Shown: in pieces, positions 2,574 through 64,000 of the stretch
How positions within the stretch are numbered: the first letter of the stretch is position 1
Layout: every line of letters starts with the position of its first letter
IMG/VR virus record: IMGVR_UViG_3300044620_001883
Coordinates: 136,256 to 200,255 of that record
Source of the DNA: a virus
Taxonomy: Duplodnaviria > Caudoviricetes
DNA length: 64,000 bases
Reading direction: 5' to 3' (one strand)
Program-made: the position numbers and the translations under genes
Notes under the pieces: generated by a model
Seen by the model: the letters and a program-made list of their open reading frames with translations, nothing else
Told to the model about the DNA's origin: nothing
Databases searched by the model: none

Positions 2574-5500
2574 ATGGCCGACAAGACTAGACCAGATGTA
2601 ATCGCCTTTGACCTTGATGGAACACTGGCCCTACGCCAGGAGCCCTTCAATCCGTACTCGGTAGGGGAACCCGTGGAGGCAATCTTGGACCTGGCCCTGA
2701 AGGCCATCCGGGATGGGAAGCGCACCTTGTGCTTCACGGCCCGCGCCAGTTCCAAGGATCCCAAGATGCACAGCACGGTGCGGAAGTGGCTCGATGATCA
2801 CGGGTTAGAGAAGATGAAGATCACGAACATCAAGGATCCAACGATAACCCGCTTCTACGATGACCGGGCCATCGGGGTCGTGCCAGACAAGGGCGAGCTT
2901 CTGACCAAGGTCGCGGCCGAGATGGTTCGGAAGACCAGGATGGTGGAAGTTCAGGATGACCACTGCCCACACTGTGACCACAAGTTTACCGAGAAGGGCT
3001 ACCCGCGTCCTGACTTCGAACAGGCCGAGCGGGAAGGCATTGAGCCCATGGACGCTGACCAGCTGTGTCCCAACTGCCAAGGGATCGTGGATGACCCGGA
3101 GATGTCCGACGAGAGAATTGAGAACTACCAGGGCTTCGGCGGGGAATCCATGAAGGAGATCCTGTACCAGCAGCGGGAGAAGAAGCGGGCTATCCTGGCT
3201 GCACGGCGGGCCAAGAAGGCCTCCACCTCGCCGGAGAACGTTTCCGTTCCAGGGCGAGGAGAGGAGAAGCAGGCCGCCGGGGACAAGCTCCGGAACCTGT
3301 GGGTACGTCGGGGTCAATGTCCCGAATGCGGTGGCAAGCCCAAGGACTTCGAGTTCTTCAAGACCCACTCGAACGCGGAGTGTCGTGACTGCGGTCACAG
3401 CTTCGATGTCGATGCTGAACGTAAGAAGCAGGCTTCCTGGGACCAAGCCCAAGAGAAGTCCGCCTCAGTACAGATCGCAGGCCGTACTGGCCCGCATGGA
3501 ATCCTGGAAGCCCTCAAGGCCCTGAACCTCGATGACCTCGAGAAGCAAGCCCGTGCTGACATTGCCTCCGGGAAGATCACCAAGCGTGACCGTGGGGTCA
3601 AGATGCTCAATGCCCTCGAAGGACTGCGCCGCAATGAGATCAAGCCCGAGGAGCTGATGATCAAGCGGGTGCCAGTGCTGCCACCGGCCTTCAGGCCCTT
3701 CTCGTTCCTGGGCACCACCTACATTCCCGGTGATGCCAACGAGCTCTACCAGGACCTCTTCAAGCACCGCGCCATCCATGACGAGACGCTCTCGACCCTG
3801 GGGGAAGGCGGCGCAGCCCTGACGCGCATGAATCTCCTGAATGCCACGAGGGCCCTGTACGGTTACGGAGACCCCGTGTCCCCGAAGCTCAAGGAGCGTG
3901 GACCCTCGGGCTACTTGGACCAGATCCTCAACGAAGGGCCAAAGCACTGCTACTCTGCAGACACAGAAATCCTGACGCGGGGTCAAGGGTGGGTGAAGTT
4001 CTCTGAACTGGAGCGTGGGGCGCAGGTGGCCACCATAAATCCCAAGACCCTGGCATTCGAATGGCAGACCCCTACGGAGTACATCGATTCAGAATACAGC
4101 GGTACCATGAAGCGGTTCGTAGTTGGTGGGCGTACAGGCAAGCGCATGGACCTTTTGGTCACACCCAATCACCGGATGTGGACCAAAAAGCGCGACAAGA
4201 AGAATAAGATGACGGACGACAATTTGCGCACTGGTTGGTATGCGATGCGGGCCGACGAGTTGGTCGCGCACAAAGTACGTCACTTCGCTATGGTGGGCGC
4301 AGGTGGTTGGGAGGGCTCGGTCGAACTGCCAGAGTGTGCACGCCACTGGCCCGCTGAACTGTTTGCACGTTTTATCGGTTGGTACATTTCAGAAGGAAGC
4401 ACACACGAATGTGGTACGATCGCTACAATCTGGCAGACCGAAGCAAACCCCGATTACTGCTTGGAACTAGACGCTTTGTTCCGAGACATCAGCAATGTAC
4501 AAGAGGTGTCCAAAGTGAACATGCACCGGGAGGAGCCTCGCTTCAGCGGTTACGGTTGGAGCATCAAGGGATGTAGACCGTTGGTTGCATGGTTGGAACA
4601 GCATTGCGGCAAAGGTTCCAATTTCAAGCGCATACCTGCTCTAGCACGTGATTGGAATCAGACCCTGTTGGGGTTGCTGTTCGACACCTACCTGAAGGGG
4701 GATGGCGCTAAGCGCGTTCCATGGCAGAAGCGTGCAAACGCGTCCGACAACTACCGGTTCCGTGATGCTCTTACAGATTCACATCATGCTTTCATTACCA
4801 CAAGTCCAAAGCTGTTCGATGACCTGATGGAAGTAGGCTTCAAACTTGGTATTTGTATCCGCCGTAGAAAAGAGCACCCGCATCTGTATCCAGAGCACCA
4901 TGCTGAGAAGTACAATGGTGTGCTCATTGGGCGCTGGTTCGTTCAAACCGAGTCGAACGGGACAGTTCAGGATGTGCAGTACAACGGTCACATTTATTGT
5001 GTCGCTGTACCTAACGGGCTGCTTGTGGTGCGCCGCAACGGTGCCGCCGTCGTCAGTGGTAACTCCTTCGTTCAACGCCGGCTCCTTTCCAAGCCCATCG
5101 ACAACGTGGGCCGCAGTGTCATCACGGTCGATCCAGACCTGGGCCTCGATGAAGTCTCGATCCCCCGTGAGATGGCCTGGACGCTCGCCGGTTCCAAGGT
5201 ACAGCGGCGGCTGGCCATGATGGGCATGAGTCCCGCCCAGACCATCAAAGCCGTGAAGGACCGTGACGCCTTTGCCAGCCGCACCCTGGAGCTTGAGCTG
5301 AAGGACACACCCTTCATCCTTTCCCGCGCTCCAGCCTGGCACAAGTTCAACGCCGTCGGGCAGTATGCCCGGATCCACGACGGTCCGCACATTGCCATCA
5401 ACCCCTATATCACGGCCGGTCAGAACGCCGACTTCGACGGGGACCAGATCAACGTCTCCCTGCCGGTCCTGCCAGAATCCATCAAGGAGACCAAGGAGAA

Positions 5501-5705
5501 GTTGATGGCCAGCAAGATGCTGTTCTCCATCAAGAACCAGGACGACGTGGTCCCGGTGCCTAAGCATGAGCAAATTTTAGGCATCTGGAATGCCAACAAA
5601 CGTCCGCCTACGAAGCTGCACAGCTTCGCTTCAGGACAGGAAGCGCTTGCGGGTATGCAGAGCGGCGCTGTAAAGTTGGAGGACGACATTGAAATTCCGG
5701 ACTAG
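2574..5705 (+). CDS. Phage multi-subunit RNA polymerase beta'-like subunit (catalytic middle part), N-terminally fused to a HAD phosphatase and two Zn-ribbons; intein-containing
   Basis: IAFDLDGTL and FYDDRA (HAD motifs I and IV); CPHC/CPNC and CPEC/CRDC; VPVLPPAFRP, DANELYQDL, LLSKPIDNVGRSVIT, LSRAPAWHK, catalytic NADFDGDQ at 5424-5447, VPKHEQILGIW. Confidence 0.93.
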   Translation: MADKTRPDVIAFDLDGTLALRQEPFNPYSVGEPVEAILDLALKAIRDGKRTLCFTARASSKDPKMHSTVRKWLDDHGLEKMKITNIKDPTITRFYDDRAIGVVPDKGELLTKVAAEMVRKTRMVEVQDDHCPHCDHKFTEKGYPRPDFEQAEREGIEPMDADQLCPNCQGIVDDPEMSDERIENYQGFGGESMKEILYQQREKKRAILAARRAKKASTSPENVSVPGRGEEKQAAGDKLRNLWVRRGQCPECGGKPKDFEFFKTHSNAECRDCGHSFDVDAERKKQASWDQAQEKSASVQIAGRTGPHGILEALKALNLDDLEKQARADIASGKITKRDRGVKMLNALEGLRRNEIKPEELMIKRVPVLPPAFRPFSFLGTTYIPGDANELYQDLFKHRAIHDETLSTLGEGGAALTRMNLLNATRALYGYGDPVSPKLKERGPSGYLDQILNEGPKHCYSADTEILTRGQGWVKFSELERGAQVATINPKTLAFEWQTPTEYIDSEYSGTMKRFVVGGRTGKRMDLLVTPNHRMWTKKRDKKNKMTDDNLRTGWYAMRADELVAHKVRHFAMVGAGGWEGSVELPECARHWPAELFARFIGWYISEGSTHECGTIATIWQTEANPDYCLELDALFRDISNVQEVSKVNMHREEPRFSGYGWSIKGCRPLVAWLEQHCGKGSNFKRIPALARDWNQTLLGLLFDTYLKGDGAKRVPWQKRANASDNYRFRDALTDSHHAFITTSPKLFDDLMEVGFKLGICIRRRKEHPHLYPEHHAEKYNGVLIGRWFVQTESNGTVQDVQYNGHIYCVAVPNGLLVVRRNGAAVVSGNSFVQRRLLSKPIDNVGRSVITVDPDLGLDEVSIPREMAWTLAGSKVQRRLAMMGMSPAQTIKAVKDRDAFASRTLELELKDTPFILSRAPAWHKFNAVGQYARIHDGPHIAINPYITAGQNADFDGDQINVSLPVLPESIKETKEKLMASKMLFSIKNQDDVVPVPKHEQILGIWNANKRPPTKLHSFASGQEALAGMQSGAVKLEDDIEIPD
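3948..5063 (+). mobile_element. Intein with LAGLIDADG-type homing endonuclease (372 aa) in the RNAP beta' middle subunit
   Basis: Starts CYSADTEILT and ends VVRRNGAAVVSGN before Ser+1; FIGWYISEGS and LFDTYLKGDG motifs; removal gives GPKH-SFVQRRLLSK; codon usage is more A/T-ending than the exteins. Confidence 0.92.
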
Positions 5706-8629: not shown

Positions 8630-9481
8630 ATGTTCCAATCCGGAGTCGAAACCATCCCCAATAGCGCCACTGAACTGGAGGTGATCTTCCCGGTCGCGTT
8701 CGCGGTGGACCCGGACACAATTATCGCCGTGGTGCGCAACACTTCGGCGGACTCCCCCAAGTACATCATCCAGGCCAGCATCACTGAGCAAAGCGCCACA
8801 GCCTTCACGGTCAGTCTCGACGCCGCAACCAGCTCCGGGAACTACGAGCTGGTCTGGTTGGCTGGCAGCGCGGCCTCGATTCTCGACACCATGAGTGTGC
8901 TGGCAGGGCGCAAGCTCACCAGCTATGGGGAACTTGCGAGTCTCACCAACGCCGAGTTCAAGATGCCGCTCTTGGATGTGTCGGGCATCCCTGCTCTCAA
9001 ACTGGTGGACGCCGCCACGTTCTGGAGCGCCGTGGCGCAGCGAGCCTCCGCGGTCCCAGCCAGCCCTCTGGCCAACATCACCACCGCGATGGCCATGACG
9101 GTCCATGAAGGTTGGTTGTACATTTCAGCACAAGACCGCTGGGTCAGGCTGCCCGTGGATGACTCTCTAAATTGGACGACCCAACCTTTTTATGTTCCCT
9201 TCCGGGAGCGGGAGATTTCCTTCGTGGAGGCAACTCCAGGTGCGGATGAGATCCTGGTCGTCGCTGACCAGTTGGTGTACACGATTGAATTCGACACACC
9301 CTTTGAAGCCGGCAACGCCCCCAAGGTGTTGCTGCAGTTGATTGATCTGAATGGTGTGGCAGTCTCGCAGTACACCGCGCAGGTTACCCGGCGTGACCTT
9401 GAGGGTTTTGATGTCACGTTCTCGGCCCCGATCCAGAACTACACGCTCCAGCTGTACTACATGGCCCGCCAACTTCCTTGA
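8630..9481 (+). CDS. Fibre-associated protein with two H-type-lectin/gp53-like beta domains
   Basis: VIFPVAFAVDPDTIIAVV...SATAFTV and YTIEFDTPFEAGNAPKVLLQL...DLEGFDVTF are internally similar; directly precedes a fibre gene. Confidence 0.5.
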   Translation: MFQSGVETIPNSATELEVIFPVAFAVDPDTIIAVVRNTSADSPKYIIQASITEQSATAFTVSLDAATSSGNYELVWLAGSAASILDTMSVLAGRKLTSYGELASLTNAEFKMPLLDVSGIPALKLVDAATFWSAVAQRASAVPASPLANITTAMAMTVHEGWLYISAQDRWVRLPVDDSLNWTTQPFYVPFREREISFVEATPGADEILVVADQLVYTIEFDTPFEAGNAPKVLLQLIDLNGVAVSQYTAQVTRRDLEGFDVTFSAPIQNYTLQLYYMARQLP

Positions 9482-9486
9482 TTCAC

Positions 9487-11835
9487 ATGAAACACATCCT
9501 CACAGCCCTCCTACTCCTGACCGCCACCTTGGCGGCCCAGACCTCCACGCTCGTGATCAGCAATGGCAAGTTGGCTACAGATCTTGATGCCAACACGAAG
9601 TCGATCCTGAATGCAGGTAAGATTGGACTTGGTGGTACTGGCACCCTGGATTCAGCCCTGCATTTCCTACCTGGTGGTGCACCAACGACCAACGCCTATG
9701 GGATCAAGTGGGGCGACACTGGCGCCGTCTTGTACCAGAGTGCTACCGGCACTGTGACGCTCACGGGCAACCTGGTGGTCAGCGGCACCATCCAAGCCTC
9801 AACTGGGATTGTGGACCTCGCGGGCACCAACAGTTTCACTGGGGCCAACAGTTTTGCAGCAGCCACGACGGTTGCGGACCTGATCCTCTCGGGAACCTTC
9901 TCGGTCGCGAATGACACAGTCCGGGACAACGTCAGAGCTGCAGCAGAACTTGTCCCCGGCACAGATGTCCAAGAGTACAGCGCAAAGCTTGCGGACATCC
10001 ACAACCTGACCCCGGCAGACAGTGCATTCCTGGTCGGTAATGGTACGACGTGGGTAGCCGAGACAACCTCGACGGCTCGCACCTCTCTAGGTCTTGGTAC
10101 CGCTGACAGCCCCACCTTCACGAACCAGACCCTCACAGGCAACCTGTCCGTCACGGGCGTCTCAACCCTGACGGGACGGGTCACCGCCAGTGGTGGGATT
10201 CAATTTGCAGCCGGGGGAACCTGGGCGGCTTCTGGATCTGGAACGATCACGAATGACCCGTTGGTACTTGGGAGCACGCTGGCTGTCACGGGCGCCACGA
10301 CCCTCACAGGGGTTGTGACGTTGGGCGCAGGGGGGCTTACCCTGACTTCCAGCGGCACCACCGCCACACTGGCAGGAAAGCTGGTTGCCACTTCCCTGGA
10401 GTTGAGCACAACTCCCCTGGCCATCGCATACGGGGGACTGGGAATTTCCAGTGCTGCCGATGGAACCTTCCCGGTTAGCAACGGTACGAACTACGTAGCC
10501 ACGACTGTGACCCCGTTTGCGCTCACGATCCTAGACGACACGACGGATGCTGCAGTACGCGCCACTCTGGGGCTTTCAACCGCTGGAGGCGACCTGACGG
10601 GCACGTACCCGAATCCAACCCTGGCGGCCAATTCCGTCGCGCTCGGGACAGACACGACAGGCAACTATGTACTTTCCTTGGCTGACTCCGGCGCTGGAGC
10701 CTTTACGATCACCAATGGAGCAACGGAGGGCGGCGCCGCGACAATCGCGCTGGCCAACAACGGTGTCACGCTGAACACGCACACGGCGGGTGACTATGTC
10801 GCCACCGTGACGGCGGGGACTGGGGTCACGATCGCAGGCGCAGGCACGGAGGGCAGGGCTGCCACGATCAGCATCGGGCAAGATGTCGCAACAAGCGCAT
10901 CCCCCACTTTCACAGGGCTCACGGTCACAACCCTGACGACTACAAACCTGGTGCTGTCTTCCGGACGCGTTATGACGACCGAGTTCGCAACGAACGCCGT
11001 CGGGGTCGCGTCTTCAATCTGGGGCGGCAGCGCCGGCAACGCGCTCGTCTATGAAGGCGCCACGGCGGATTCGGATGAGACATCCTTGACTGCTGTGGAC
11101 CCAACCGCCGACAATGAGGTGCGTCTTCCGGATGGGAGCGGCACTTTGATGCTCTCGCTGCTGACCGACAACGCGCCCAACAAGACCGGCGCGGTCTGGA
11201 CGAATACCGACGCGGTCGTCTACGAGGGCACCACCGCCGACGGCATCACGCTATCCTTGGTATCACCCGATCCTGTGACGTCGAGCAAGACCGTCACGTT
11301 GCCGAACGCCACCACAACCTTGGTGGGCCGTGACACTACCGACACGCTGACGAACAAGACCCTGACGTCCCCTATCTTGACCACGCCCCTTATGGCGGAC
11401 ACGGGTGACACGACAAAGCGGATGACGACAAACCTCTCCGGCGCCACGACGGCCAAGACCCGCACCATTGTCAGCAGCCACACAGACAACCGCAGCAATA
11501 CCATCCCGGACGTGGCTGGAACATTCGAGATAGCCCAGACCACAACCACCGTGGCACTCATCGCCGACGATCAAGTTGTGACACCGGGCGCCGTCACACG
11601 CATTGCTCTGACGAGCGACGACGCCGTGGCCGCCAATCGTACTTTCACACTGAGCACCACCGGCGCCGTCACAGGTTCCATTTACTGTCTGCTAGGTCCT
11701 CCGACTGACGCTTGCGTTCTTGAGGATACAGGCATTCAAGTGCTGTCTGCTGACTGGACACCAGGGCCTGATGACACGCTGATGCTTTGGTTTGACGGCA
11801 CCAACTTCTACGAGGTTGGACGATCCGCCAATTAA
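9487..11835 (+). CDS. Tail-fibre-like protein with an N-terminal signal-peptide-like sequence
   Basis: MKHILTALLLLTATLAAQ; T/G/A-rich fibre motifs (TARTSLGLGT, LDDTTDAAVRATLGL, YEGATAD...DPTADNEVRLPDGSGT, TTDTLTNKTLTSP). Confidence 0.75.
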   Translation: MKHILTALLLLTATLAAQTSTLVISNGKLATDLDANTKSILNAGKIGLGGTGTLDSALHFLPGGAPTTNAYGIKWGDTGAVLYQSATGTVTLTGNLVVSGTIQASTGIVDLAGTNSFTGANSFAAATTVADLILSGTFSVANDTVRDNVRAAAELVPGTDVQEYSAKLADIHNLTPADSAFLVGNGTTWVAETTSTARTSLGLGTADSPTFTNQTLTGNLSVTGVSTLTGRVTASGGIQFAAGGTWAASGSGTITNDPLVLGSTLAVTGATTLTGVVTLGAGGLTLTSSGTTATLAGKLVATSLELSTTPLAIAYGGLGISSAADGTFPVSNGTNYVATTVTPFALTILDDTTDAAVRATLGLSTAGGDLTGTYPNPTLAANSVALGTDTTGNYVLSLADSGAGAFTITNGATEGGAATIALANNGVTLNTHTAGDYVATVTAGTGVTIAGAGTEGRAATISIGQDVATSASPTFTGLTVTTLTTTNLVLSSGRVMTTEFATNAVGVASSIWGGSAGNALVYEGATADSDETSLTAVDPTADNEVRLPDGSGTLMLSLLTDNAPNKTGAVWTNTDAVVYEGTTADGITLSLVSPDPVTSSKTVTLPNATTTLVGRDTTDTLTNKTLTSPILTTPLMADTGDTTKRMTTNLSGATTAKTRTIVSSHTDNRSNTIPDVAGTFEIAQTTTTVALIADDQVVTPGAVTRIALTSDDAVAANRTFTLSTTGAVTGSIYCLLGPPTDACVLEDTGIQVLSADWTPGPDDTLMLWFDGTNFYEVGRSAN

Positions 11836-12887: not shown

Positions 12888-12992
12888 GCAGAAACACCCG
12901 CGACGAAGTGCTTGGCACTCCGTGGGACTATTTCGGGAGAATCCCTCCCACCGACGCTCTCCCGGTACATCAGGAGGGCAACCCATAAACAC

Positions 12993-13307
12993 ATGTATAT
13001 GCACAAAACATTGGTCAGCGTAGGGACCCTTACGGCGTCCCTACTGACACTGGGCTTCCTGATCGGCGCGGTCAGGTTGCTCCTCATCTGGTGGGCCGTT
13101 GCCGCCAGCATTGGCCACCGTGCCGCCGCAATCCTGTTGGTCCCTGTGGGACTGATGGTTCTCGTTGGCGGCGCGATCGCGCAAATCGCGAAGCTCTGTT
13201 GGGAAGAGCTTCGCGACATCAACTGCGGCCAGGAGGCCGCGGAGCAGCGGGAGCTGCAAAACAGCAGGGATGACATTGAGTTGGCCCAAGGGAAGGAGGA
13301 GCTATGA
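12993..13307 (+). CDS. Small membrane protein (two hydrophobic helices)
   Basis: LTLGFLIGAVRLLLIWWAV and AILLVPVGLMVLVGGAIA. Confidence 0.65.
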   Translation: MYMHKTLVSVGTLTASLLTLGFLIGAVRLLLIWWAVAASIGHRAAAILLVPVGLMVLVGGAIAQIAKLCWEELRDINCGQEAAEQRELQNSRDDIELAQGKEEL

Positions 13308-13870
13308 AGTTCCCCTTTTCGGATACTCCGACGTTCCGGAGTTGGGCGGGCACCCTCATCGACGGGAACTGCCTTGAGGTGACGGAGGTCTTGTCGATTT
13401 GGTCGTTTCGCGAGATCACAGATCAGCGAGAGATCCCCGGTATCGACACGACCGGGCAGGTGACCCATGCGGTCTATTACCAAGCTCCTGGGACTTCCAG
13501 GATACTGATCGCAGTGTTTGCGATGTTGGAGGACCGTGGTGAGTACCGCTACATCATGGGTGCTGGCGTAAACCCATCAACTGGGGAATGGCGCGGGAAC
13601 CACGATCTCAGCGCTGGTGAGATCGCTAGCCTGATCCGGCAGGGGCATCTATATGCCTGTGAAAAGGTCACCGCGGAGGCGGCGGCCGAGCGGCGTCAAC
13701 CCACTGCCCAAGAGCCCAACATCCAGATCCAGTTCCAGGGCTACACCTTGGATCTGTTCATGACGGATAACGGTTCCTTGGGGCTGACGATCGAGAGGTC
13801 GCCAGCCCATGAAGATAATCCCAGCGTGGATGTTTTCATCACGCAGGACCTCAAGGTCACGCATGTGTAA
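13304..13870 (+). CDS. Hypothetical protein
   Basis: 188 aa; preceded by a strong AAGGAGG SD, which is exceptional in this window. Confidence 0.75.
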   Translation: MKFPFSDTPTFRSWAGTLIDGNCLEVTEVLSIWSFREITDQREIPGIDTTGQVTHAVYYQAPGTSRILIAVFAMLEDRGEYRYIMGAGVNPSTGEWRGNHDLSAGEIASLIRQGHLYACEKVTAEAAAERRQPTAQEPNIQIQFQGYTLDLFMTDNGSLGLTIERSPAHEDNPSVDVFITQDLKVTHV

Positions 13871-13875
13871 GGTAA

Positions 13876-13913
13876 CCACCCGTCGTCCTTCGGGGCGGCG
13901 GGTGGCTTTTCGT
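13876..13913 (+). terminator. Rho-independent terminator
   Basis: CCACCCGTCGTCC-TTCG-GGGCGGCGGGTGG stem with C(UUCG)G loop, followed by CTTTTCGTT, just after stop 13870. Confidence 0.85.
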
Positions 13914-13967
13914 TAGCTATGACGTCGCTTGACCTGTACAGGCTTTCGTGGTCAAATGTGTGTTGTC

Positions 13968-14363
13968 ATGAAGTACATCACCACACTTATCGTCCTCATT
14001 GTCTCCGCGTTGTTCCTCAACAACTGCACTACCACCCAAAGGGATGCGTCCAAAAAGTACGCCTCCCAAATCAGCCGGGAAGTGGCCAGGTCGGCCGGTA
14101 TCGCCGCCGCCGCGGTCGCAACCAACCTGATTCAACTCAAGCTCAATGAGGCAACAGCCAAGCTGAGCGAGCAACGTGCAACTCTTGGCCCCAAGAATCC
14201 CGGTAGTGTCGTCACATTGACCAAGCTTGGCTTCCAGGAGATTGCGGTCGTGGAGGCCGAGAGGCTCCTGCGGCGCGCCGAGGTTGAGCTGGCAAAGCTC
14301 AAAGATGTTGATGCCCTGCCTGCACCTGCTGAAGCTCTTGCTCCAGTCGTGGTTACACCCTGA
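13968..14363 (+). CDS. Lipoprotein with coiled coil (possible spanin-like lysis accessory)
   Basis: MKYITTLIVLIVSALFLNNC lipobox-like Cys20; helical C-terminus; adjacent to a holin-like gene. Confidence 0.6.
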   Translation: MKYITTLIVLIVSALFLNNCTTTQRDASKKYASQISREVARSAGIAAAAVATNLIQLKLNEATAKLSEQRATLGPKNPGSVVTLTKLGFQEIAVVEAERLLRRAEVELAKLKDVDALPAPAEALAPVVVTP

Positions 14364-14394
14364 GTCATTTTAACCCCACCACCCCGCGCACACC

Positions 14395-14820
14395 ATGCCT
14401 CCAGATCTCAAAGCCTTCCTGATCAACCTCTTCTCCAAAAACACCGGCTCGATTGCTCGTGCTGTGGCTGGCATCGTAGCCGCCGGCATTGCTGCTTTGG
14501 CTGTCAAGCTGTTCGGTTACACGCTGTCCGGTGAGGAATACCTCAAGCTCACCGGCATGGTCGCGGGTGGTGCCATGTGGTTCCTGGGCGAAGTCGTCAA
14601 GTACATCGAGAACAAGAACATCACAGCGCTGCAGGCAGCCGTGCAAACTATCGCGCCGGAAGTTCTTACCGACGGTCACATTGGTCCCGTCACTGTGGCG
14701 GCCGTGGAGCGCGCAGCTGAAACGCTCAGCGCCTTCAAGGCAGCAGGTGCCGGGGGCACGGTTGATGAACGAGCCACCGCCGCTACCGTGGTGGTAGCAA
14801 TGAAACCACCTGCGTTGTGA
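14395..14820 (+). CDS. Holin-like two-TM membrane protein with a peptidoglycan-binding-type motif
   Basis: SIARAVAGIVAAGIAALAVKLFG and LTGMVAGGAMWFLG TM segments; LTDGHIGPVTVAAV. Confidence 0.5.
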   Translation: MPPDLKAFLINLFSKNTGSIARAVAGIVAAGIAALAVKLFGYTLSGEEYLKLTGMVAGGAMWFLGEVVKYIENKNITALQAAVQTIAPEVLTDGHIGPVTVAAVERAAETLSAFKAAGAGGTVDERATAATVVVAMKPPAL

Positions 14821-19818: not shown

Positions 19819-20679
19819 ATGCCCACTACCTCTACATTCCCAGACCTCCTGCCCGGCCAAGCTTCCATGGCAGATCCTACAGCTGTCCGGTACCTCCAGA
19901 CGGCGCTTAACAGCCAAGGCTATCCGGTGCCCGTCAACGGCAAGTACGACAAAGCCACCATCGCCGCTGTCTTCAACTTCCAGGGTGTCCGGCTAGACCG
20001 TAAAGGTCGTCACCTCAAAGCTGACGGCTGGGTTGGTCCTGCCACTTGGTGGGCCATTCAGAATCCGTCAGGCGCGTCCCAGAAGTCCAACCTCGAGGGC
20101 GACACCCGCAAGGGGTTGTCTGCTGAACGCCGCGCAATCATCAAAGCTTTCCTGAAGGACCACACAGCCGGGGTGCGGGAGATCCCTGATGGTGCCAACT
20201 ACGGTGACGGTGTGACCCGCTACCTGACTGTCATCGGTCCTGCGTACTGGTGCTGCTACGCTGTCAGCACATGGCACAAAGATGCAGTGGGCACCTGGCC
20301 CTTCGGGGAACGCTTCGGGTTAGTGGCCGGGATCTGGAATGAAGCCAAAGAGCGCGGACGCGCGATCCTGAAGGAGGACACCAGCACGGCTGTCCCGGGC
20401 GATGCGTTCGTGATGCTGTACCGGAATGCCAAAGGCAGACTCACAGGCCTGGGTCACATCGGGCTTGTCCTGACTGCCAGCCAAGACGGGGAGTCCTTCA
20501 ATACCGGCGAAGGTAATGCCGGCAATCGCGTGAAGATCAGCCGGCGTGAGACTGACCAGGACACGCTGGTCGGTTACATTGACTTCTTCGGGGACCGGGC
20601 TGCTGTCCTTCCCAAGTTCGAACGTGGGCTGTTGTCCAAGTCGGAAGCGGCGGATTCGTCACTAGCTGGCACACGCTGA
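19819..20679 (+). CDS. Endolysin: PG-binding domain plus CHAP amidase
   Basis: VRYLQTALNSQGY...NGKYDKATIAAVFNFQ...ADGWVGPATW; catalytic YWCCYAV, PGD, GHIGLV, GEGN. Confidence 0.88.
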   Translation: MPTTSTFPDLLPGQASMADPTAVRYLQTALNSQGYPVPVNGKYDKATIAAVFNFQGVRLDRKGRHLKADGWVGPATWWAIQNPSGASQKSNLEGDTRKGLSAERRAIIKAFLKDHTAGVREIPDGANYGDGVTRYLTVIGPAYWCCYAVSTWHKDAVGTWPFGERFGLVAGIWNEAKERGRAILKEDTSTAVPGDAFVMLYRNAKGRLTGLGHIGLVLTASQDGESFNTGEGNAGNRVKISRRETDQDTLVGYIDFFGDRAAVLPKFERGLLSKSEAADSSLAGTR

Positions 20680-23588: not shown

Positions 23589-26579
23589 ATGCGCGTCAAA
23601 GCCATCCAGTATGCGGTCAATTCGGTGCTACCTCCAGAGCTGCGCGACTATCAACGCCCTCTGGACGGTAAAGGGATCGAGCGTCTGATGCACCAGGTGG
23701 CGGTAAGCTACCCGGACAAATATGCGGAGGTGCTCCGTCACATCGGTGACCTGGGACGCAACGCCGCGTACTGGCAAGGTGAGACCATGGGACTCGATGA
23801 TCTGCGCGACGTCATCGACACGCCCGGCTATTTGCGCCAGATGGACACGGAGGTCGACGCAGCCACACGAGGCCTCAAGGATCCGCAGGCGATCCGGGAA
23901 GCCCGGGAGGGTGTCTGGCATAAATGGGCGTCCAAGCTGGAGCGCGACACCATGACGGCCGCGCTGGTGAAGAACAACGCGATCGGTGAATCTGTGGCAT
24001 CCGGAGCACGCGGCAAGCCTGTGCAGGCCCGCGCTATGCTTTCCACGCCGGCGATCTTCGAAGACAGCCAGGGTCGCACCATCCCGCTCTTCGCCCGCAG
24101 TTCTTACTCCCAGGGTGTGTCTCCTGGTGCCTGGCTTGCTGGGACCTACGGCGCCCGCAAGGCAGTCGTGAGTACAAAGGTCTCGACTGCCAAAGGTGGG
24201 TTCTTGGCGAAAATGCTCACACAGGTTGCTGCTCCTCTGATCGTGACTGAGCCAGACTGCGGAACCACCAACGGCATCGATCTTTCCAAAGACGCGCCCG
24301 ACCTGCGCAACCGCTTCCTGGCCGCCCCTGCCGGTGGGCTTGACGGTGGGTCTCTTCTGGACCGCAAGGGCATCGCGCAGATCAAAAACAAGTTCAAGGG
24401 CGACACCATCCTGGTGCGATCTGCTCTGACCTGCCAGGCCCCTCGTGGTGTTTGCGCCAAGTGTATCGGGGCAGACCCGCGCGGACAGCTCCACCGTGTT
24501 GGCTACGCCGCAGGGATCACAGCCTCGAACGCGCTCGGAGAACCTGCTTGTTTGCATGGTAGCACCCTGGTGCGCATGGCAGATGGAAGTGTCAGACCGA
24601 TCACCGCTATCCGAGTTGGTGACATGGTGCTAGGCGCGGATATACAAGGGGTGCTGCGTCCAACAAGGGTCATGAATACGTTCGTGAACGGTATGCGTCA
24701 CTGCTTTAGAACGGTTGTGCGTAAGGGCTTCGGTGCCAAGTCTGATCGTATCGAGTTAATTTCCACAGCAGAACATAAAGTTCTAAGCTTCAAAGGCAAA
24801 CGTCACAAGAAGGCGTATCCAACTATCGCAAGCATAGAAATGCCAGCAGAAGTAAACCCCCAACACAGCGTGTACATGGCAGCGGGTTGCCCTGATTTCG
24901 TAGGCGTTGTCGAGCCGTGGGCCATGCTGCTCGGGGCACTTACAGGTGACGGTTGTTACACCGGAGGAAAAGGCTCTGATGGCAAAGGCATCGGTTTTTC
25001 CTGCTACGATCAGCTTCTCACTGAAGACATGCAGAGAGCGCTACATGCACACGGATTGAAGCTGAGCGGCAGCGAAGCAAGCGAGTTTCGTGTAAACATG
25101 CAAGACCAATATAGCGCGTTCGAATACATCGATGGTAAATTAGTACGTAACAAGCTGCGTGCGGTGCTTATCAAAGAAGGTATGTGGGGGCAGTACAGTG
25201 GTGAAAAAACACCTCCAAGAAACATTCAGAGGTGGGACAACGCATCCGTAGCAGCTTACATCGGTGGGTTGCTGGCCACAGATGGGTGGATCACCACAAC
25301 CGGAAGTGTTGCTGGGTTTAGCAGCAACTCCCAGCTGCTGCTGCAGACTGTCAAGGACCTGTGTGAGCTGCGTTTTGGTATCTACGGATCGCGCATAATC
25401 CCGAAGTACAAAAGAAAGAAAGGGACCCAACAGTTTTACGCACCAACGTTTGAGTTCACGATCTGCGGCGCAGAGAACATGCGAAAGTTGTTCGCGCATA
25501 TACCTGTGCCAGGTTGCAAACAAGCAAGGCTGCAAAAGAAAGCACAGGAACCAACTAAAACACGCATGTGCGCGGGGCGTTTCACCGTGCTTGAGCAAGT
25601 GTACTACGGGTTTGAGATGACTTACGACATTGAGGTGGACAACGACACCCACCTCTTTGCGCTCGCCAATGGTCTGGTTGTTTCAAACACACAGGCGGCC
25701 CTGCGGGAAAAGCACACATCAGGCGCAGCGTCTAAGAAGGCCTCGTACTCGGGGTTGGATTGGCTGCAGCGGTTCGTGCAGGTGCCAGACAGTTTCCCAG
25801 ATCGCGCCCCCGTGGCTGAGCAAGATGGGACCGTGACGGTCATGGAGGCCCCGCAAGGTGGTCACTATGTACACATCGGAGATCAGGAGCATTACGTACC
25901 GGCCAACCTGGAAGTAACCGTCAAGACAGGCGAGCGTGTTGAAGCCGGGCAACCTCTGTCGGAAGGGGTCGTGCGCCCTGATGACGTGGTGCGGTTGCGT
26001 GGCGTTGGGGAAGGTCGCCGATACTACAGCGACCGCCTTGGGCAGATGTTTGCCGACTCAGGCTTCCGCGCGGACCCGCGCAACGTCGAGCTGATTGCGC
26101 GTGCGGCGGTCGATCATGTGCAGATCGACGATCCTGAGGATCTGCCAGACGGTGTGCTCCCTGACGACACAGTACAGTTCGGGGAGTTCATGCGCAATTA
26201 CGAGCCCGCCGAGGGATCCCAAATACGGGATATCAAGGAGGCCGCCGGCCAGTACCTACAGCAGCCCGCCCTCCACTACACACCCGGCACCAAACTCACA
26301 GGCAGCATGGTCGAGCGTCTAGGCAAGGCTGGCATCTCGAAGATCATGACCAACGAGAAAGCGCCGCCTTTCCACCCCGCAATGGTGCGCCTTCAAACGT
26401 CCTCGTTTTCAAATCCGGATTGGCTGGCCAGCTTGTCGACCTCTTACCTCGGCAAACAGCTCGCCACGGGAGCGGCGCGCGGGCAGGACACCAACATCGA
26501 ACACAACATCCACTTTGCACCCCGGCTTGCTGTGGGTGTAGACTTTGGCAAGAACATCGAAACCACCGGAGAATTTTGA
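23589..26579 (+). CDS. Phage RNA polymerase beta'-like subunit, C-terminal part (bridge helix, Zn site, trigger loop); intein-containing
   Basis: SGARGK; GTYGARKAVVSTKVSTAKGGFLAKML (bridge helix); EPDCGT; RSALTC..PRGVCAKC; ALGEPA/TQAALREKHTSG (trigger loop); region-H-like C-terminus. Confidence 0.92.
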   Translation: MRVKAIQYAVNSVLPPELRDYQRPLDGKGIERLMHQVAVSYPDKYAEVLRHIGDLGRNAAYWQGETMGLDDLRDVIDTPGYLRQMDTEVDAATRGLKDPQAIREAREGVWHKWASKLERDTMTAALVKNNAIGESVASGARGKPVQARAMLSTPAIFEDSQGRTIPLFARSSYSQGVSPGAWLAGTYGARKAVVSTKVSTAKGGFLAKMLTQVAAPLIVTEPDCGTTNGIDLSKDAPDLRNRFLAAPAGGLDGGSLLDRKGIAQIKNKFKGDTILVRSALTCQAPRGVCAKCIGADPRGQLHRVGYAAGITASNALGEPACLHGSTLVRMADGSVRPITAIRVGDMVLGADIQGVLRPTRVMNTFVNGMRHCFRTVVRKGFGAKSDRIELISTAEHKVLSFKGKRHKKAYPTIASIEMPAEVNPQHSVYMAAGCPDFVGVVEPWAMLLGALTGDGCYTGGKGSDGKGIGFSCYDQLLTEDMQRALHAHGLKLSGSEASEFRVNMQDQYSAFEYIDGKLVRNKLRAVLIKEGMWGQYSGEKTPPRNIQRWDNASVAAYIGGLLATDGWITTTGSVAGFSSNSQLLLQTVKDLCELRFGIYGSRIIPKYKRKKGTQQFYAPTFEFTICGAENMRKLFAHIPVPGCKQARLQKKAQEPTKTRMCAGRFTVLEQVYYGFEMTYDIEVDNDTHLFALANGLVVSNTQAALREKHTSGAASKKASYSGLDWLQRFVQVPDSFPDRAPVAEQDGTVTVMEAPQGGHYVHIGDQEHYVPANLEVTVKTGERVEAGQPLSEGVVRPDDVVRLRGVGEGRRYYSDRLGQMFADSGFRADPRNVELIARAAVDHVQIDDPEDLPDGVLPDDTVQFGEFMRNYEPAEGSQIRDIKEAAGQYLQQPALHYTPGTKLTGSMVERLGKAGISKIMTNEKAPPFHPAMVRLQTSSFSNPDWLASLSTSYLGKQLATGAARGQDTNIEHNIHFAPRLAVGVDFGKNIETTGEF
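24549..25688 (+). mobile_element. Intein with LAGLIDADG homing endonuclease (380 aa) at GEPA|TQ of the trigger-loop region
   Basis: Starts CLHGSTLVRMADG and ends TYDIEVDNDTHLFALANGLVVSN before Thr+1; MLLGALTGDG and YIGGLLATDG. Confidence 0.93.
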
Positions 26580-62831: not shown

Positions 62832-64000
62832 ATGAAGTCTTTATTGCGCGCTCTACTCCTGCTTGTTAGCACCAACCTGCTGGCTCAGGTTCAAGGTGAT
62901 TTTACTATTCCGTACAAGGACACAAGCGGACGCCCGCCGATCCTGCGCAATTGGCAGGCCACAGCCTCGTCCCTGTGGGGTACAAACAGCTCCAAACAGC
63001 CTGTGTCCATTACCATTGGCGCCGGTTTGCTCTTGAGTGGAAACGTGTTGCGCGGTACCGGAGGTACCGGAGGTACGGTGACATGGGGTGACATCACCGG
63101 AACTTTGGCAAATCAGACGGATCTACAGGCTGCTTTATCCACCAAACAACCGCTGGCAGCTGCGCTCACCACGCTGAGCACAGCTACAGCGGCCGGACTT
63201 GCCTTGATGGATGACGCCAATGCGGCGGCCCAGAGATCTACTCTGGGTCTGGGTACCTTGGCCACACAGTCTGCGACTATCACAGACTACCTGCTGACGA
63301 CCACTGCGACTGCGACATTTGCCCCGGTAGCGTCTCCTACATTCACAGGCACTGTTGTCATTCCAGCTGGTGCGGACATCGCCGGGTACCAAAGCACGGC
63401 AGGCACCTTGGCCTTAGCTGGTTTCAGCTCGATCACAGGCACGCTCTCTGATGGGAACATAGCAAGCGCCGCAGCATGGAACGCCAAACAATCCGCTCTC
63501 GTTTTTGGGACTGGGTTGACCAACACAGCTGGGACTGTTTCCGTTAACGTCTCACAGGCCATCACCTCGTTGAGTAATCTGACCAGTAACGGTTTTGTGA
63601 AAACCACCGGAGGCAGCGGCGCGTTGACGGTGGACACCACATCGTACGAGCCCGCCATAGGTGCCGGTACGTTGGCTCTTTCCAAGCTCGCCACCGATCC
63701 GCTGGCGCGGGCGAACCACACCGGTACGCAAGCCTGGAGCACCATCACAAGCACGCCGACGACGCTCTTGGGTTATGGTATCACTGATGGTATTACAGCC
63801 GCTGTTGTGGGGGCCACGTATGAGCCCATCTTAGTTGCTGGTACCACAGGACAATACTACCGGGGAGACAAGAGCTGGCAGACTCTCAACGCCACGGCTG
63901 TCGGTCTCGGCAACGTGAGCAATGCGCTCCAGCTCGTCGCGGCGAACAACCTCAGTGACTTAGCCAGCGTATCGACCGCTCGTAGCAACCTTGGCCTCGC
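62832..64000 (+). CDS. Tail-fibre-like protein with an N-terminal signal-peptide-like sequence, 3'-truncated (not in the supplied track)
   Basis: Manually translated: MKSLLRALLLLVSTNLLAQ...VTWGDITGTLANQTDLQAAL...LMDDANAAAQRSTLGL...ARANHTGTQ...TPTTLLGYGITD...YYRGDKSWQ...NNLSDLASVSTARSNLGL; open to the window end. Confidence 0.85.
   Translation, partial: MKSLLRALLLLVSTNLLAQVQGDFTIPYKDTSGRPPILRNWQATASSLWGTNSSKQPVSITIGAGLLLSGNVLRGTGGTGGTVTWGDITGTLANQTDLQAALSTKQPLAAALTTLSTATAAGLALMDDANAAAQRSTLGLGTLATQSATITDYLLTTTATATFAPVASPTFTGTVVIPAGADIAGYQSTAGTLALAGFSSITGTLSDGNIASAAAWNAKQSALVFGTGLTNTAGTVSVNVSQAITSLSNLTSNGFVKTTGGSGALTVDTTSYEPAIGAGTLALSKLATDPLARANHTGTQAWSTITSTPTTLLGYGITDGITAAVVGATYEPILVAGTTGQYYRGDKSWQTLNATAVGLGNVSNALQLVAANNLSDLASVSTARSNLGL

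What the first reader, a model, noticed from the sequence alone, without database searches (positions are those of the whole stretch)
9487..9540. Fibre protein 1 begins with a Sec-type signal-peptide-like sequence
Seen: MKHILTALLLLTATLAAQ has a basic n-region, Leu-rich h-region and small-residue c-region, followed by ~770 aa of typical phage-fibre motifs. Known: tailed-phage fibres normally fold and attach in the cytoplasm and lack signal peptides. Inference: the fibre is exported, either for periplasmic/surface assembly onto virions or as a receptor-blocking decoy or adhesin on the infected cell.
Basis: partly seen in the sequence, partly recalled or inferred. Interest (0 to 1): 0.72.

Follow-up and report, generated by a model that had tools for sequence, protein, structure and literature searches.

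The report
Phage fibre protein with export signal
A 200-kb uncultured lake phage makes this fibre protein, and its two other fibre-like proteins, with a bacterial secretion signal, so these host-recognition parts probably mature outside the cytoplasm where tailed-phage particles are normally built.

Summary
ORF 9487-11835 (782 aa) begins with a 17-residue leader: Lys/His n-region, 14-residue Leu/Ala/Thr core, Ala-Ala, then Gln.

- The start codon is fixed by synteny. In four relatives the leader ATG overlaps the upstream stop.
- At 50%-identity depth the N-terminal domain family has 54 members. 46 carry a leader, all with K/R in the n-region.
- 39 of 46 have [A/G/S]-Gln at the boundary, against 5% of background windows. 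This is the Bacteroidota "Q-rule" of signal peptidase I.
- Six relatives in the same gene position have no leader and start at the predicted mature N-terminus. The leader is therefore a detachable module, not part of the fold.
- In this genome only five ORFs have such N-termini: the three fibre-like proteins, a small ORF after fibre 3, and one lipoprotein-like ORF.

Best reading: Sec export and cleavage, periplasmic maturation, and joining to virions at or after lysis. The last step is inferred. It rests by analogy on cultured Cellulophaga phage phi10:1, where four of five consecutive leader-bearing tail-end proteins are annotated from virion MS/MS.

I found no paper describing this. The scan itself had noted similar cases on other DNA (68 findings in at least 67 genomes). 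SignalP could not be run, and the host is unknown.

The parts
9487..9537 (+). Leader, residues 1-17: n-region M-K-H, h-region I4-A17, predicted signal peptidase I site after A17
   Evidence: Sequence. Leader conserved in 46 of 54 family members; K/R in the n-region in 46/46. AF2 predicts an isolated low-confidence helix at 2-16.
9538..9540 (+). Gln18, predicted +1 residue of the mature protein (Q-rule position)
   Evidence: [A/G/S]-Q at the leader boundary in 39/46 members versus 5% of background 10-residue windows, binomial p about 1e-43. The distance from this Q to the conserved NGKL motif varies by 6-9 residues, so the Q goes with the leader end and not with the domain.
9541..9936 (+). Conserved N-terminal domain of the mature fibre (about residues 19-150; NGKL motif at residues 26-29)
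   Evidence: 45% mean identity across the family, against 19-25% in the C-terminal third. 45 representatives were found with this domain alone as query. The AF2 model of residues 19-250 has pLDDT 78.6.
9937..11538 (+). Fibre shaft with repeated Gly/Thr/Ser-rich motifs shared with many phage fibres
   Evidence: Shared motifs with Mtd_N (PF18454) fibre proteins and rhizobial, CPR and other phage or prophage fibres. PHROG 692 hit at residues 592-672.
11539..11826 (+). C-terminal beta-sandwich tip (about residues 685-780), exchanged as a module among relatives
   Evidence: AF2 pLDDT is about 85 here. The tip is shared at 51-57% with P0009-P0011, whose middle parts differ.
8630..9481 (+). Conserved upstream partner gene (283 aa, no leader) with Gp53-like_C and H-type lectin domains
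   Evidence: Pfam hits. Same gene order in L002, L004, L032, L033, L034, L035 and L036.
62832..63998 (+). Fibre 2, first 389 residues, with an 18-residue leader of the same type (62832-62885). The gene runs off the record end and continues at the start of the record; the full length is 1021 aa (P0293).
   Evidence: Relatives P0296, P0303, P0309 and P0311 keep leaders. P0303 and P0311 have longest contigs of the same length as those of fibre-1 relatives P0009 and P0014, so they are probably from the same phages.
13968..14363 (+). Lipoprotein-like ORF (hydrophobic leader ending L-N-N-C); a different signal type and not part of the fibre set

Best explanation
The first 17 residues are a cleavable Sec-type (signal peptidase I) signal peptide. 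The host Sec system exports the fibre precursor and cuts it after Ala17. This exposes Gln18, which in Bacteroidota-type hosts is cyclised to pyroglutamate. The fibre then folds and presumably trimerises in the periplasm. All three fibre-like proteins of this phage take this route, and so does the small protein encoded after fibre 3.

The mature fibre keeps a conserved N-terminal domain of about 130 residues and a variable, swappable tip. That is the layout of a virion-attached receptor-binding protein. I therefore infer that it joins cytoplasmically built particles once holin lesions or lysis merge the two compartments.

Shown here: the leader's features, its conservation, the Q boundary, its modular absence in some relatives, and its restriction to fibre genes. 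Inferred: actual export and cleavage, a Bacteroidota host, and attachment to virions.
For: - Leader anatomy and start codon.
- Census: 46 of 54 members have a leader, 46/46 have K/R in the n-region, and 39/46 have [AGS]-Q at the boundary versus 5% background.
- Published Q-rule: a mean of 71% of SPase I substrates in Bacteroidetes have Gln at +1, against mostly under 9% in Chlorobi (PMC5837995).
- Six leaderless relatives start 3-9 residues before the NGKL motif. For three of them, in-frame stops just upstream and the same synteny were verified on DNA.
- The same leader type sits on fibre 2, fibre 3 and the small ORF after fibre 3, and on relatives of fibres 2 and 3.
- The crude genome-wide rule flagged no other convincing signal-type N-terminus except a lipoprotein-like ORF.
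- The N-terminus is conserved and the C-terminus is variable and modular.
- There is no lipobox Cys, no twin-arginine motif and no T9SS C-terminal domain, so the periplasm is the default destination.
- Shine-Dalgarno motifs are not enriched upstream of genes (18.5% versus 17.5% background), which fits a Bacteroidota-type host.
- Analogy: in cultured Cellulophaga phage phi10:1, gp091-gp095 at the tail end all carry Q-rule leaders, and gp091-gp094 are annotated from virion MS/MS.
- Feasibility: Bdellovibrio MAT fibres are phage-fibre-like trimers made with signal peptides (PMC10769870).
Against: - No signal-peptide predictor could be run. My rules are crude: a Q-blind -3/-1 rule puts the cut one residue earlier in this protein.
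- There is no proteomic or experimental evidence for this phage.
- The host is unknown. All close relatives have 57-60% GC, which is high for most freshwater Bacteroidota. The one relative found in a genome bin sits in a 'proteobacterium' MAG, which is weak evidence.
- Fibre 1 lies between RNA polymerase genes, not in the tail module.
- Its conserved partner gene has no leader, so the two proteins would be in different compartments.
- No mechanism is known by which periplasmic fibres would meet cytoplasmic virions efficiently.
- Six relatives do without a leader.
- The phi10:1 proteins are not homologues of this fibre, and MS/MS of particle preparations can pick up co-purifying proteins.
Confidence: 0.55

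Rival explanations
1. The protein is exported and cleaved but never joins the virion. It works in the envelope or on the surface of the infected cell. It might block or degrade receptor polysaccharide on its way out (superinfection exclusion, or protection of progeny from cell debris), or it might act as a surface adhesin like the Bdellovibrio MAT fibres.
For: Its layout (signal peptide, conserved beta-rich N-domain of about 130 residues, variable tip) equals that described for the 21 MAT fibres (PMC10769870). Exported phage receptor-blockers exist, such as T5 Llp (own knowledge). Fibre 1 lies outside the tail module. Fibre-repeat proteins with leaders also occur in bacterial chromosomes, e.g. 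P0142 in a 6.5-Mb contig beside non-phage genes.
Against: Leaderless relatives in the same gene position cannot act in the envelope before lysis, so the shared function must be one that works after release. There is no T9SS domain, lipobox or other route across the outer membrane. Three large fibres plus a helper protein is a heavy investment for a decoy. Fibre 2 follows baseplate-like genes, though that placement is only a weak lead. In phi10:1, leader-bearing tail-end proteins were annotated from virion MS/MS.
Confidence: 0.2
2. The N-terminal hydrophobic helix is not removed. It serves as a membrane anchor, or as a trimerisation or socket helix in the particle.
For: AF2 predicts a helix at residues 2-16. 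Cleavage has not been shown.
Against: Six relatives lack the helix altogether and start at the predicted mature end. The core drifts freely in sequence while keeping only its hydrophobic character, the basic n-region and a small residue before Gln. The same kind of leader sits on three fibres whose sequence after the Gln is unrelated. The helix has low confidence and does not pack against the rest of the model.
Confidence: 0.1
3. Two isoforms are made: an exported one from ATG 9487, and a cytoplasmic, virion-bound one from an internal start just after the leader.
For: All six genes examined have an in-frame GTG or ATG between the predicted cut and the NGKL motif. Such a product would resemble the natural leaderless relatives.
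Against: Val/GTG is common at this GC content, and three of the six genes are close relatives, so this may well be chance. Many family members have no Val or Met in that stretch. No ribosome-binding signal is evident there.
Confidence: 0.08
4. Annotation artefact: the true start lies downstream and the 'leader' is untranslated.
For: None beyond the internal GTG at codon 23.
Against: The ATGA stop/start overlap in four relatives, the synonymous-change pattern, and family-wide conservation of the leader's character.
Confidence: 0.02

Closest known systems
Bacteroidota Q-rule substrates of signal peptidase I (Bochtler et al. 2018, PMC5837995; PMC10653852)
   Same: Short basic n-region, Leu-rich core, a small residue at -1 and Gln at +1. 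The frequency of Gln at the boundary in this family (39/46, 85%) is in the range reported for Bacteroidetes proteomes (mean 71%).
   Different: Those are host proteins. Here the bearer is a fibre protein of a lytic-type jumbo phage. The host phylum and pyroglutamate formation are not shown.
Tail-end proteins gp091-gp095 of cultured Cellulophaga phage phi10:1 (NC_021802)
   Same: Five consecutive tail-distal proteins (structural proteins, a tail fiber protein, pectate lyases) each start with a leader ending in a small residue followed by Gln. gp091-gp094 are annotated from virion MS/MS.
   Different: It is a 54-kb phage that is not a relative, and there was no detectable homology to this fibre. 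I found no paper that comments on these leaders. The record does not say whether the leaders are removed.
Bdellovibrio bacteriovorus MAT fibres (Caulton et al. 2024, PMC10769870)
   Same: Phage-fibre-like trimers built as signal peptide, then a conserved beta-rich N-domain of about 130 residues, then a shaft and a swappable tip. They show that such fibres can be made by the export route.
   Different: They are bacterial proteins displayed on the predator's own surface. Homology of the N-domains was not tested.
Receptor-binding protein g3p of filamentous phages, and Sec- or SAR-exported endolysins (e.g. fOg44 Lys44, cited in PMC8878798)
   Same: Phage late proteins that use the host Sec system. 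g3p is a receptor-binding virion protein with a cleaved leader.
   Different: Filamentous phages assemble at the membrane by extrusion. Endolysins are not virion parts. Neither case involves a tailed phage's fibres.
Q-rule signal-peptide proteins of Porphyromonas gingivalis prophages (PMC10367356)
   Same: Phage-encoded proteins predicted to be SPase I substrates exposing Gln.
   Different: There they are five genes of unknown function in temperate phages, read as host-modifying factors and not as fibres.

Membership tests
Sec / signal peptidase I (type I) signal peptide | Positively charged n-region | tested here: met
   Lys2 (plus His3) in this protein. K/R present in 46/46 leader-bearing relatives and D/E in only 1.
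Sec / signal peptidase I (type I) signal peptide | Uncharged hydrophobic h-region of about 7-15 residues | tested here: met
   I4-A17, 14 residues, no charged residue. Mean predicted leader length in the family is 19 residues.
Sec / signal peptidase I (type I) signal peptide | Small residues at -1 and an allowed residue at -3 before the cut | tested here: met
   L-A-A|Q (-1 Ala, -3 Leu) or T-L-A|A (-1 Ala, -3 Thr). Relatives show A, G or S at -1. The exact site is ambiguous by one residue.
Sec / signal peptidase I (type I) signal peptide | Positive call by a trained predictor (SignalP, Phobius) | not testable with these tools
   No such predictor was available; only rule-based scoring was used.
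Sec / signal peptidase I (type I) signal peptide | Export and cleavage shown experimentally | not testable with these tools
   The phage is uncultured. Indirect support only: leaderless relatives begin at the predicted mature end.
Bacteroidota Q-rule substrate | Gln at +1 of the mature protein | tested here: met
   Gln18. 39/46 relatives have [AGS]-Q at the boundary versus 5% background. Fibres 2 and 3 also have it.
Bacteroidota Q-rule substrate | Host belongs to Bacteroidota (or another high-Q lineage) and has a glutaminyl cyclase | tested here: inconclusive
   No host link was found. There is no Shine-Dalgarno enrichment, which fits. GC of 57-60% is atypical. The phage encodes no cyclase or signal peptidase of its own.
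Tailed-phage tail fibre / receptor-binding protein | Sequence or fold relation to known fibre proteins | tested here: met
   PHROG 692; a match to a pelagiphage gene annotated in RefSeq as baseplate wedge initiator; shared shaft motifs with Mtd_N fibres; atlas neighbours are all viral fibre families. Fold hits are weak only.
Tailed-phage tail fibre / receptor-binding protein | Conserved N-terminal attachment part with a variable, modular C-terminal tip | tested here: met
   45-49% mean identity for residues 19-240 versus 19-25% for residues 481-782, with tips shared mosaically.
Tailed-phage tail fibre / receptor-binding protein | Gene lies in the tail or baseplate module | tested here: not met
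   Fibre 1 lies between two RNA polymerase beta-prime genes (2574-5705 and 23589-26579) in this phage and its relatives. Fibre 2 does follow baseplate-like genes, but those assignments are weak.
Tailed-phage tail fibre / receptor-binding protein | Presence in the virion | not testable with these tools
   No proteome exists for this phage. There is only the analogy with phi10:1.
Type IX secretion cargo | C-terminal Por_Secre_tail domain | tested here: not met
   No PF18962 match anywhere in the 200-kb record at E <= 1. No Pfam hit on the protein.
Bacterial lipoprotein (signal peptidase II) | Lipobox with Cys at +1 | tested here: not met
   No Cys in the first 700 residues of the protein.
Bdellovibrio MAT-type surface fibre | Signal peptide followed by a conserved beta-rich N-domain of about 130 residues and a variable tip | tested here: met
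   Architecture only (PMC10769870).
Bdellovibrio MAT-type surface fibre | Homology of the N-domain to MAT N-domains, and surface display | not tested
   No MAT N-domain sequence was at hand.

The most novel reading that the evidence does not exclude
Routing receptor-binding fibres through the host Sec pathway may be a general, undescribed assembly route of tailed phages of Bacteroidota-type hosts. Here it would extend to a jumbo phage with its own RNA polymerase. Particles would be built fibreless in the cytoplasm and completed only when holin lesions or lysis bring them together with periplasmic, pyroglutamate-capped fibres. The leader is a switchable module that relatives have gained or lost. 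Its benefit might be to keep fibres away from cytoplasmic receptor precursors or immune sensors.
Probability: 0.4. Interest if true: 0.85.

Novelty: new variant of a known kind. Interest (0 to 1): 0.72.

Why it matters
Textbook assembly of tailed phages takes place wholly in the cytoplasm. In practice the absence of a signal peptide is even used as an argument that a variable protein belongs to a phage rather than to the cell surface (PMC6199706).

A fibre family that keeps a host-type export signal implies something different. Either the last step of virion assembly happens outside the cytoplasm, or these phages secrete fibre-like proteins for another purpose. The case is strengthened because all fibre-like proteins of the phage share the leader, and because natural leaderless versions exist.

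Either reading would affect three things:
- how receptor-binding proteins are recognised in metagenomes;
- how such fibres should be expressed for host-range work, namely with a leader or in the periplasm;
- host prediction, since the Gln rule points to the host phylum.

The leader-bearing and leaderless relatives provide a ready-made comparison for experiments.

Tried and rejected
- **Periplasmic disulfide.** The Cys-x8-Cys pair near the C-terminus is not conserved even in the closest relatives. Rejected.
- **Export for host O-glycosylation.** The Bacteroidota sequon D-[ST]-[AILVMT] is not enriched over shuffles in any of the three fibres or in 22 relatives, and does not differ from leaderless fibres. 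No support here.
- **Phage-encoded processing enzymes.** No Peptidase_S26, Glu_cyclase_2 or Peptidase_M28 match in the record.
- **T9SS cargo.** No C-terminal domain.
- **Host assignment.**
  - The genome-contig scan gave one true relative, on a 6.8-kb contig binned as 'proteobacterium'. All other matches covered only the generic shaft motif.
  - The viral-contig scan found no relative.
  - There are no tRNAs in the window and a single tRNA-Ser in the genome.
- **Number of gains and losses of the leader.** The tree of the 130-residue domain is too poorly resolved. It needs 5 changes, but well-supported branches force only 1.
- **Fold of the whole protein.** pLDDT was 51 and the model is usable only for the C-terminal tip. 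PDB sequence searches found nothing.
- **Literature.** Seven full-text searches found no paper describing Sec leaders on fibres of tailed phages (reads 30, 60, 71, 94, 95). The Cellulophaga phage paper itself was not held.
- **Cultured relatives.** tblastn against 50,697 phage records gave only short motif matches.
- **Not attempted.** Complex prediction, sequencing-run look-ups and read mapping, because none would bear on export.
Full report
**1. What is there**

The window is the last 64 kb of a 200,255-bp IMG/VR virus record (98% complete by CheckV, 57.9% GC; 185 of my 241 crude ORF calls lie on one strand). It encodes split RNA polymerase beta-prime genes, one of them with an intein, and a tail or baseplate region with only faint family matches.

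ORF 9487-11835 gives a 782-residue protein, P0001. The anatomy is:
- M-K-H as the n-region;
- an uncharged 14-residue Leu/Ala/Thr core (I4-A17);
- Ala-Ala;
- then Gln18.

There is no Cys and no twin arginine.

**2. The start codon is real**

The upstream gene ends at 9481. In four related contigs the leader's ATG overlaps the stop of the upstream gene (ATGA). Leader codons differ between relatives largely by synonymous Leu/Ala changes.

**3. It is not a chance hydrophobic N-terminus**

A crude genome-wide rule over 241 ORFs picked out convincingly only this ORF and a lipoprotein-like ORF at 13968-14363. Following notes of the first readers, I confirmed three more leaders of the same type:
- on fibre 2 (window 62832);
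- on fibre 3 (record 3092-4912, locus L029);
- on the 117-residue ORF just after fibre 3.

Fibre 2 runs off the record end and continues at the record start. Its full length is 1021 aa, as in P0293. After the Gln, the three fibres are unrelated in sequence.

**4. Survey of homologues**

A word-index search and an exhaustive HMMER search with residues 1-150 against 1.84 billion representatives define a family of 54 sequences sharing the N-terminal domain (NGKL motif and about 130 residues after it).
- 46 carry a leader, 6 do not, and 2 have ambiguous starts.
- All 46 leaders have K/R in the n-region, and only one has an acidic residue there.
- 39 of 46 have [A/G/S]-Gln at the end of the hydrophobic core, against 5% of 10-residue windows elsewhere in the same proteins (p about 1e-43).
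- The Gln lies 6 to 9 residues from the NGKL motif, so it belongs to the leader end and not to the domain.
- The seven without Gln at the boundary mostly have classical A-x-A type sites.

This is the Bacteroidota Q-rule. Signal peptidase I exposes Gln in 71% of substrates on average in that phylum, and in under 9% in most Chlorobi. [quoted passage not shown]

**5. Natural leaderless versions**

Six relatives begin with Met followed by 3 to 9 residues and then the NGKL-type motif, which is where the mature protein is predicted to begin. For three of them I checked the DNA:
- the gene sits in the same place, directly after the lectin-like gene;
- in-frame stop codons lie 3 to 8 codons upstream, so no leader has been missed.

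The domain therefore works without the helix. The tree of this short domain is too weakly resolved to count gains and losses.

**6. What the rest of the protein is**

Pfam finds nothing. The evidence for a fibre is:
- PHROG 692 'virion structural protein' matches residues 592-672;
- a pelagiphage gene annotated in RefSeq as baseplate wedge initiator matches residues 520-689;
- the shaft motifs recur in many fibres that start with the Mtd_N domain instead of a leader;
- the language-model atlas places the protein among viral fibre families only.

AF2 on the whole chain is poor (pLDDT 51), but it gives an isolated helix at 2-16 and a confident C-terminal beta-sandwich at 685-780. The mature N-terminal 232 residues model at pLDDT 78.6 as an extended beta-rich piece, with only weak fibre-type fold matches.

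Across the family the N-terminal 240 residues are 45-49% identical on average, and the last 300 residues only 19-25%, with tips shared mosaically. This is the usual pattern of a receptor-binding protein: a conserved attachment end and an exchangeable tip.

**7. Context**

Fibre 1 always follows a 270-283-residue protein with Gp53-like_C and H-type lectin domains that has no leader. The pair lies between polymerase genes, not in the tail module.

Relatives of fibre 2 and fibre 3 also keep leaders. Two fibre-2 relatives have longest contigs of the same length as those of fibre-1 relatives, so they probably come from the same phages and the trait belongs to the whole fibre set.

Among other metagenomic proteins that share fibre repeats, 72 of 321 have signal-like N-termini, and 46 of those 72 have Gln at the boundary. 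Some are chromosomal bacterial proteins and some are on phage-like contigs.

**8. Destination and mechanism**

With no lipobox, no Tat motif and no T9SS domain, the default destination is the periplasm. The phage brings no signal peptidase or glutaminyl cyclase of its own, so it depends on the host.

What happens next is inferred. I favour attachment to virions once the compartments merge at lysis, for four reasons:
- the leaderless relatives imply a function carried out after release;
- the conservation pattern is that of an attached fibre;
- every fibre-like protein of the phage shares the route;
- a cultured analogue exists.

The analogue came as a lead from earlier scan findings, which I checked. 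Cellulophaga phage phi10:1 (NC_021802) has five consecutive tail-end proteins, gp091-gp095, each with a leader ending in a small residue followed by Gln. gp091-gp094 are annotated 'based on experimental MS/MS proteomics analysis' of virions.

That phage-like trimeric fibres can be made by the export route is shown by the Bdellovibrio MAT fibres. They have the same order of parts: signal peptide, conserved beta-rich domain of about 130 residues, variable tip (PMC10769870). The same paper is also the best support for the rival reading, a surface or envelope protein that never joins the particle.

**9. Host**

The host is unknown. The Q-rule and the lack of Shine-Dalgarno enrichment point to Bacteroidota or a similar lineage. 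The 57-60% GC of the whole clade and the single binned contig labelled 'proteobacterium' do not help. I put Bacteroidota at roughly two in three.

**10. Novelty**

Use of Sec by phage proteins is known for endolysins, exclusion lipoproteins and filamentous-phage coat proteins. Q-rule proteins of unknown function have been noted in Porphyromonas prophages (PMC10367356).

I found no paper that describes signal peptides on fibres of tailed phages. One paper uses their absence as a mark of phage origin.

The scan itself has reported similar cases on other DNA: 68 findings in at least 67 genomes, mostly crAss-like and other Bacteroidota phages. New here are:
- the setting, a 200-kb phage with its own polymerase;
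- the exhaustive census;
- the leaderless relatives in the same locus.

**11. Limits**

- No trained signal-peptide predictor was available.
- My Q-blind rule puts the cut one residue earlier in this protein.
- Export, cleavage, trimer state, virion presence and host are all untested.

Noticed in passing
window 62832-63998 and L029:3-1955 (start of the record): The linear record breaks inside the fibre 2 gene. Both ends carry the same repeat (NNLSDLAS.STARSNLGL), and a 1021-aa full-length version exists on another contig (P0293). The record is therefore circularly permuted, or the assembly broke at a repeat.
   Followed up: partly
L029:4927-5280 (record coordinates): A 117-residue ORF directly after fibre 3 has its own signal-type leader (ending H-A, then V-D-P). 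It sits where fibre-assembly chaperones are usually encoded, so it may be a co-exported helper. No family match.
   Followed up: partly
L029:1943-2347 and L029:2551-3039: Two small leaderless paralogues between fibre 2 and fibre 3 share a conserved C-terminal half (…AGLY.QVK…GEIWW.TAQS.TVSR.HPFV…). Function unknown.
   Followed up: no
L029:5720-6900: A run of collagen-like (G-P-P-G-P) ORFs follows the fibre 3 cluster.
   Followed up: no
window 12912-14820: A multi-spanning membrane protein (12912-13307), a lipoprotein-like ORF with an unusual L-N-N-C box (13968-14363) and another membrane protein (14395-14820) sit together downstream of fibre 1. This may be a lysis or spanin cassette. The endolysin-like gene is at 19819-20679.
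   Followed up: no
L035:4243-10106: In one leaderless relative the fibre gene is followed by a block of sulfotransferase, glycosyltransferase and methyltransferase genes. This may be a glycan-modifying cluster linked to the fibre.
   Followed up: no
whole record: Shine-Dalgarno-like motifs are no more frequent upstream of ORF starts (34 of 184) than at random positions (17.5%). Starts were taken by the longest-ORF rule, so this is rough.
   Followed up: partly
window 9550-9555 and the same place in L002, L004, L005, L032, L033: Each of the six genes examined has an in-frame GTG or ATG between the predicted cleavage site and the NGKL motif. This may be chance, or an internal start for a leaderless isoform.
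   Followed up: partly
window 8630-9481: The conserved partner of fibre 1 has two small lectin-type domains (Gp53-like_C at residues 2-78, H_lectin at 218-279) and no leader. In closer relatives an extra 142-196-residue gene lies between it and the fibre.
   Followed up: partly
window 44350-46701: A 783-residue protein gives a weak DUF2345 (VgrG C-terminal) match below Pfam's cut-off. It may be the tail spike or hub.
   Followed up: no
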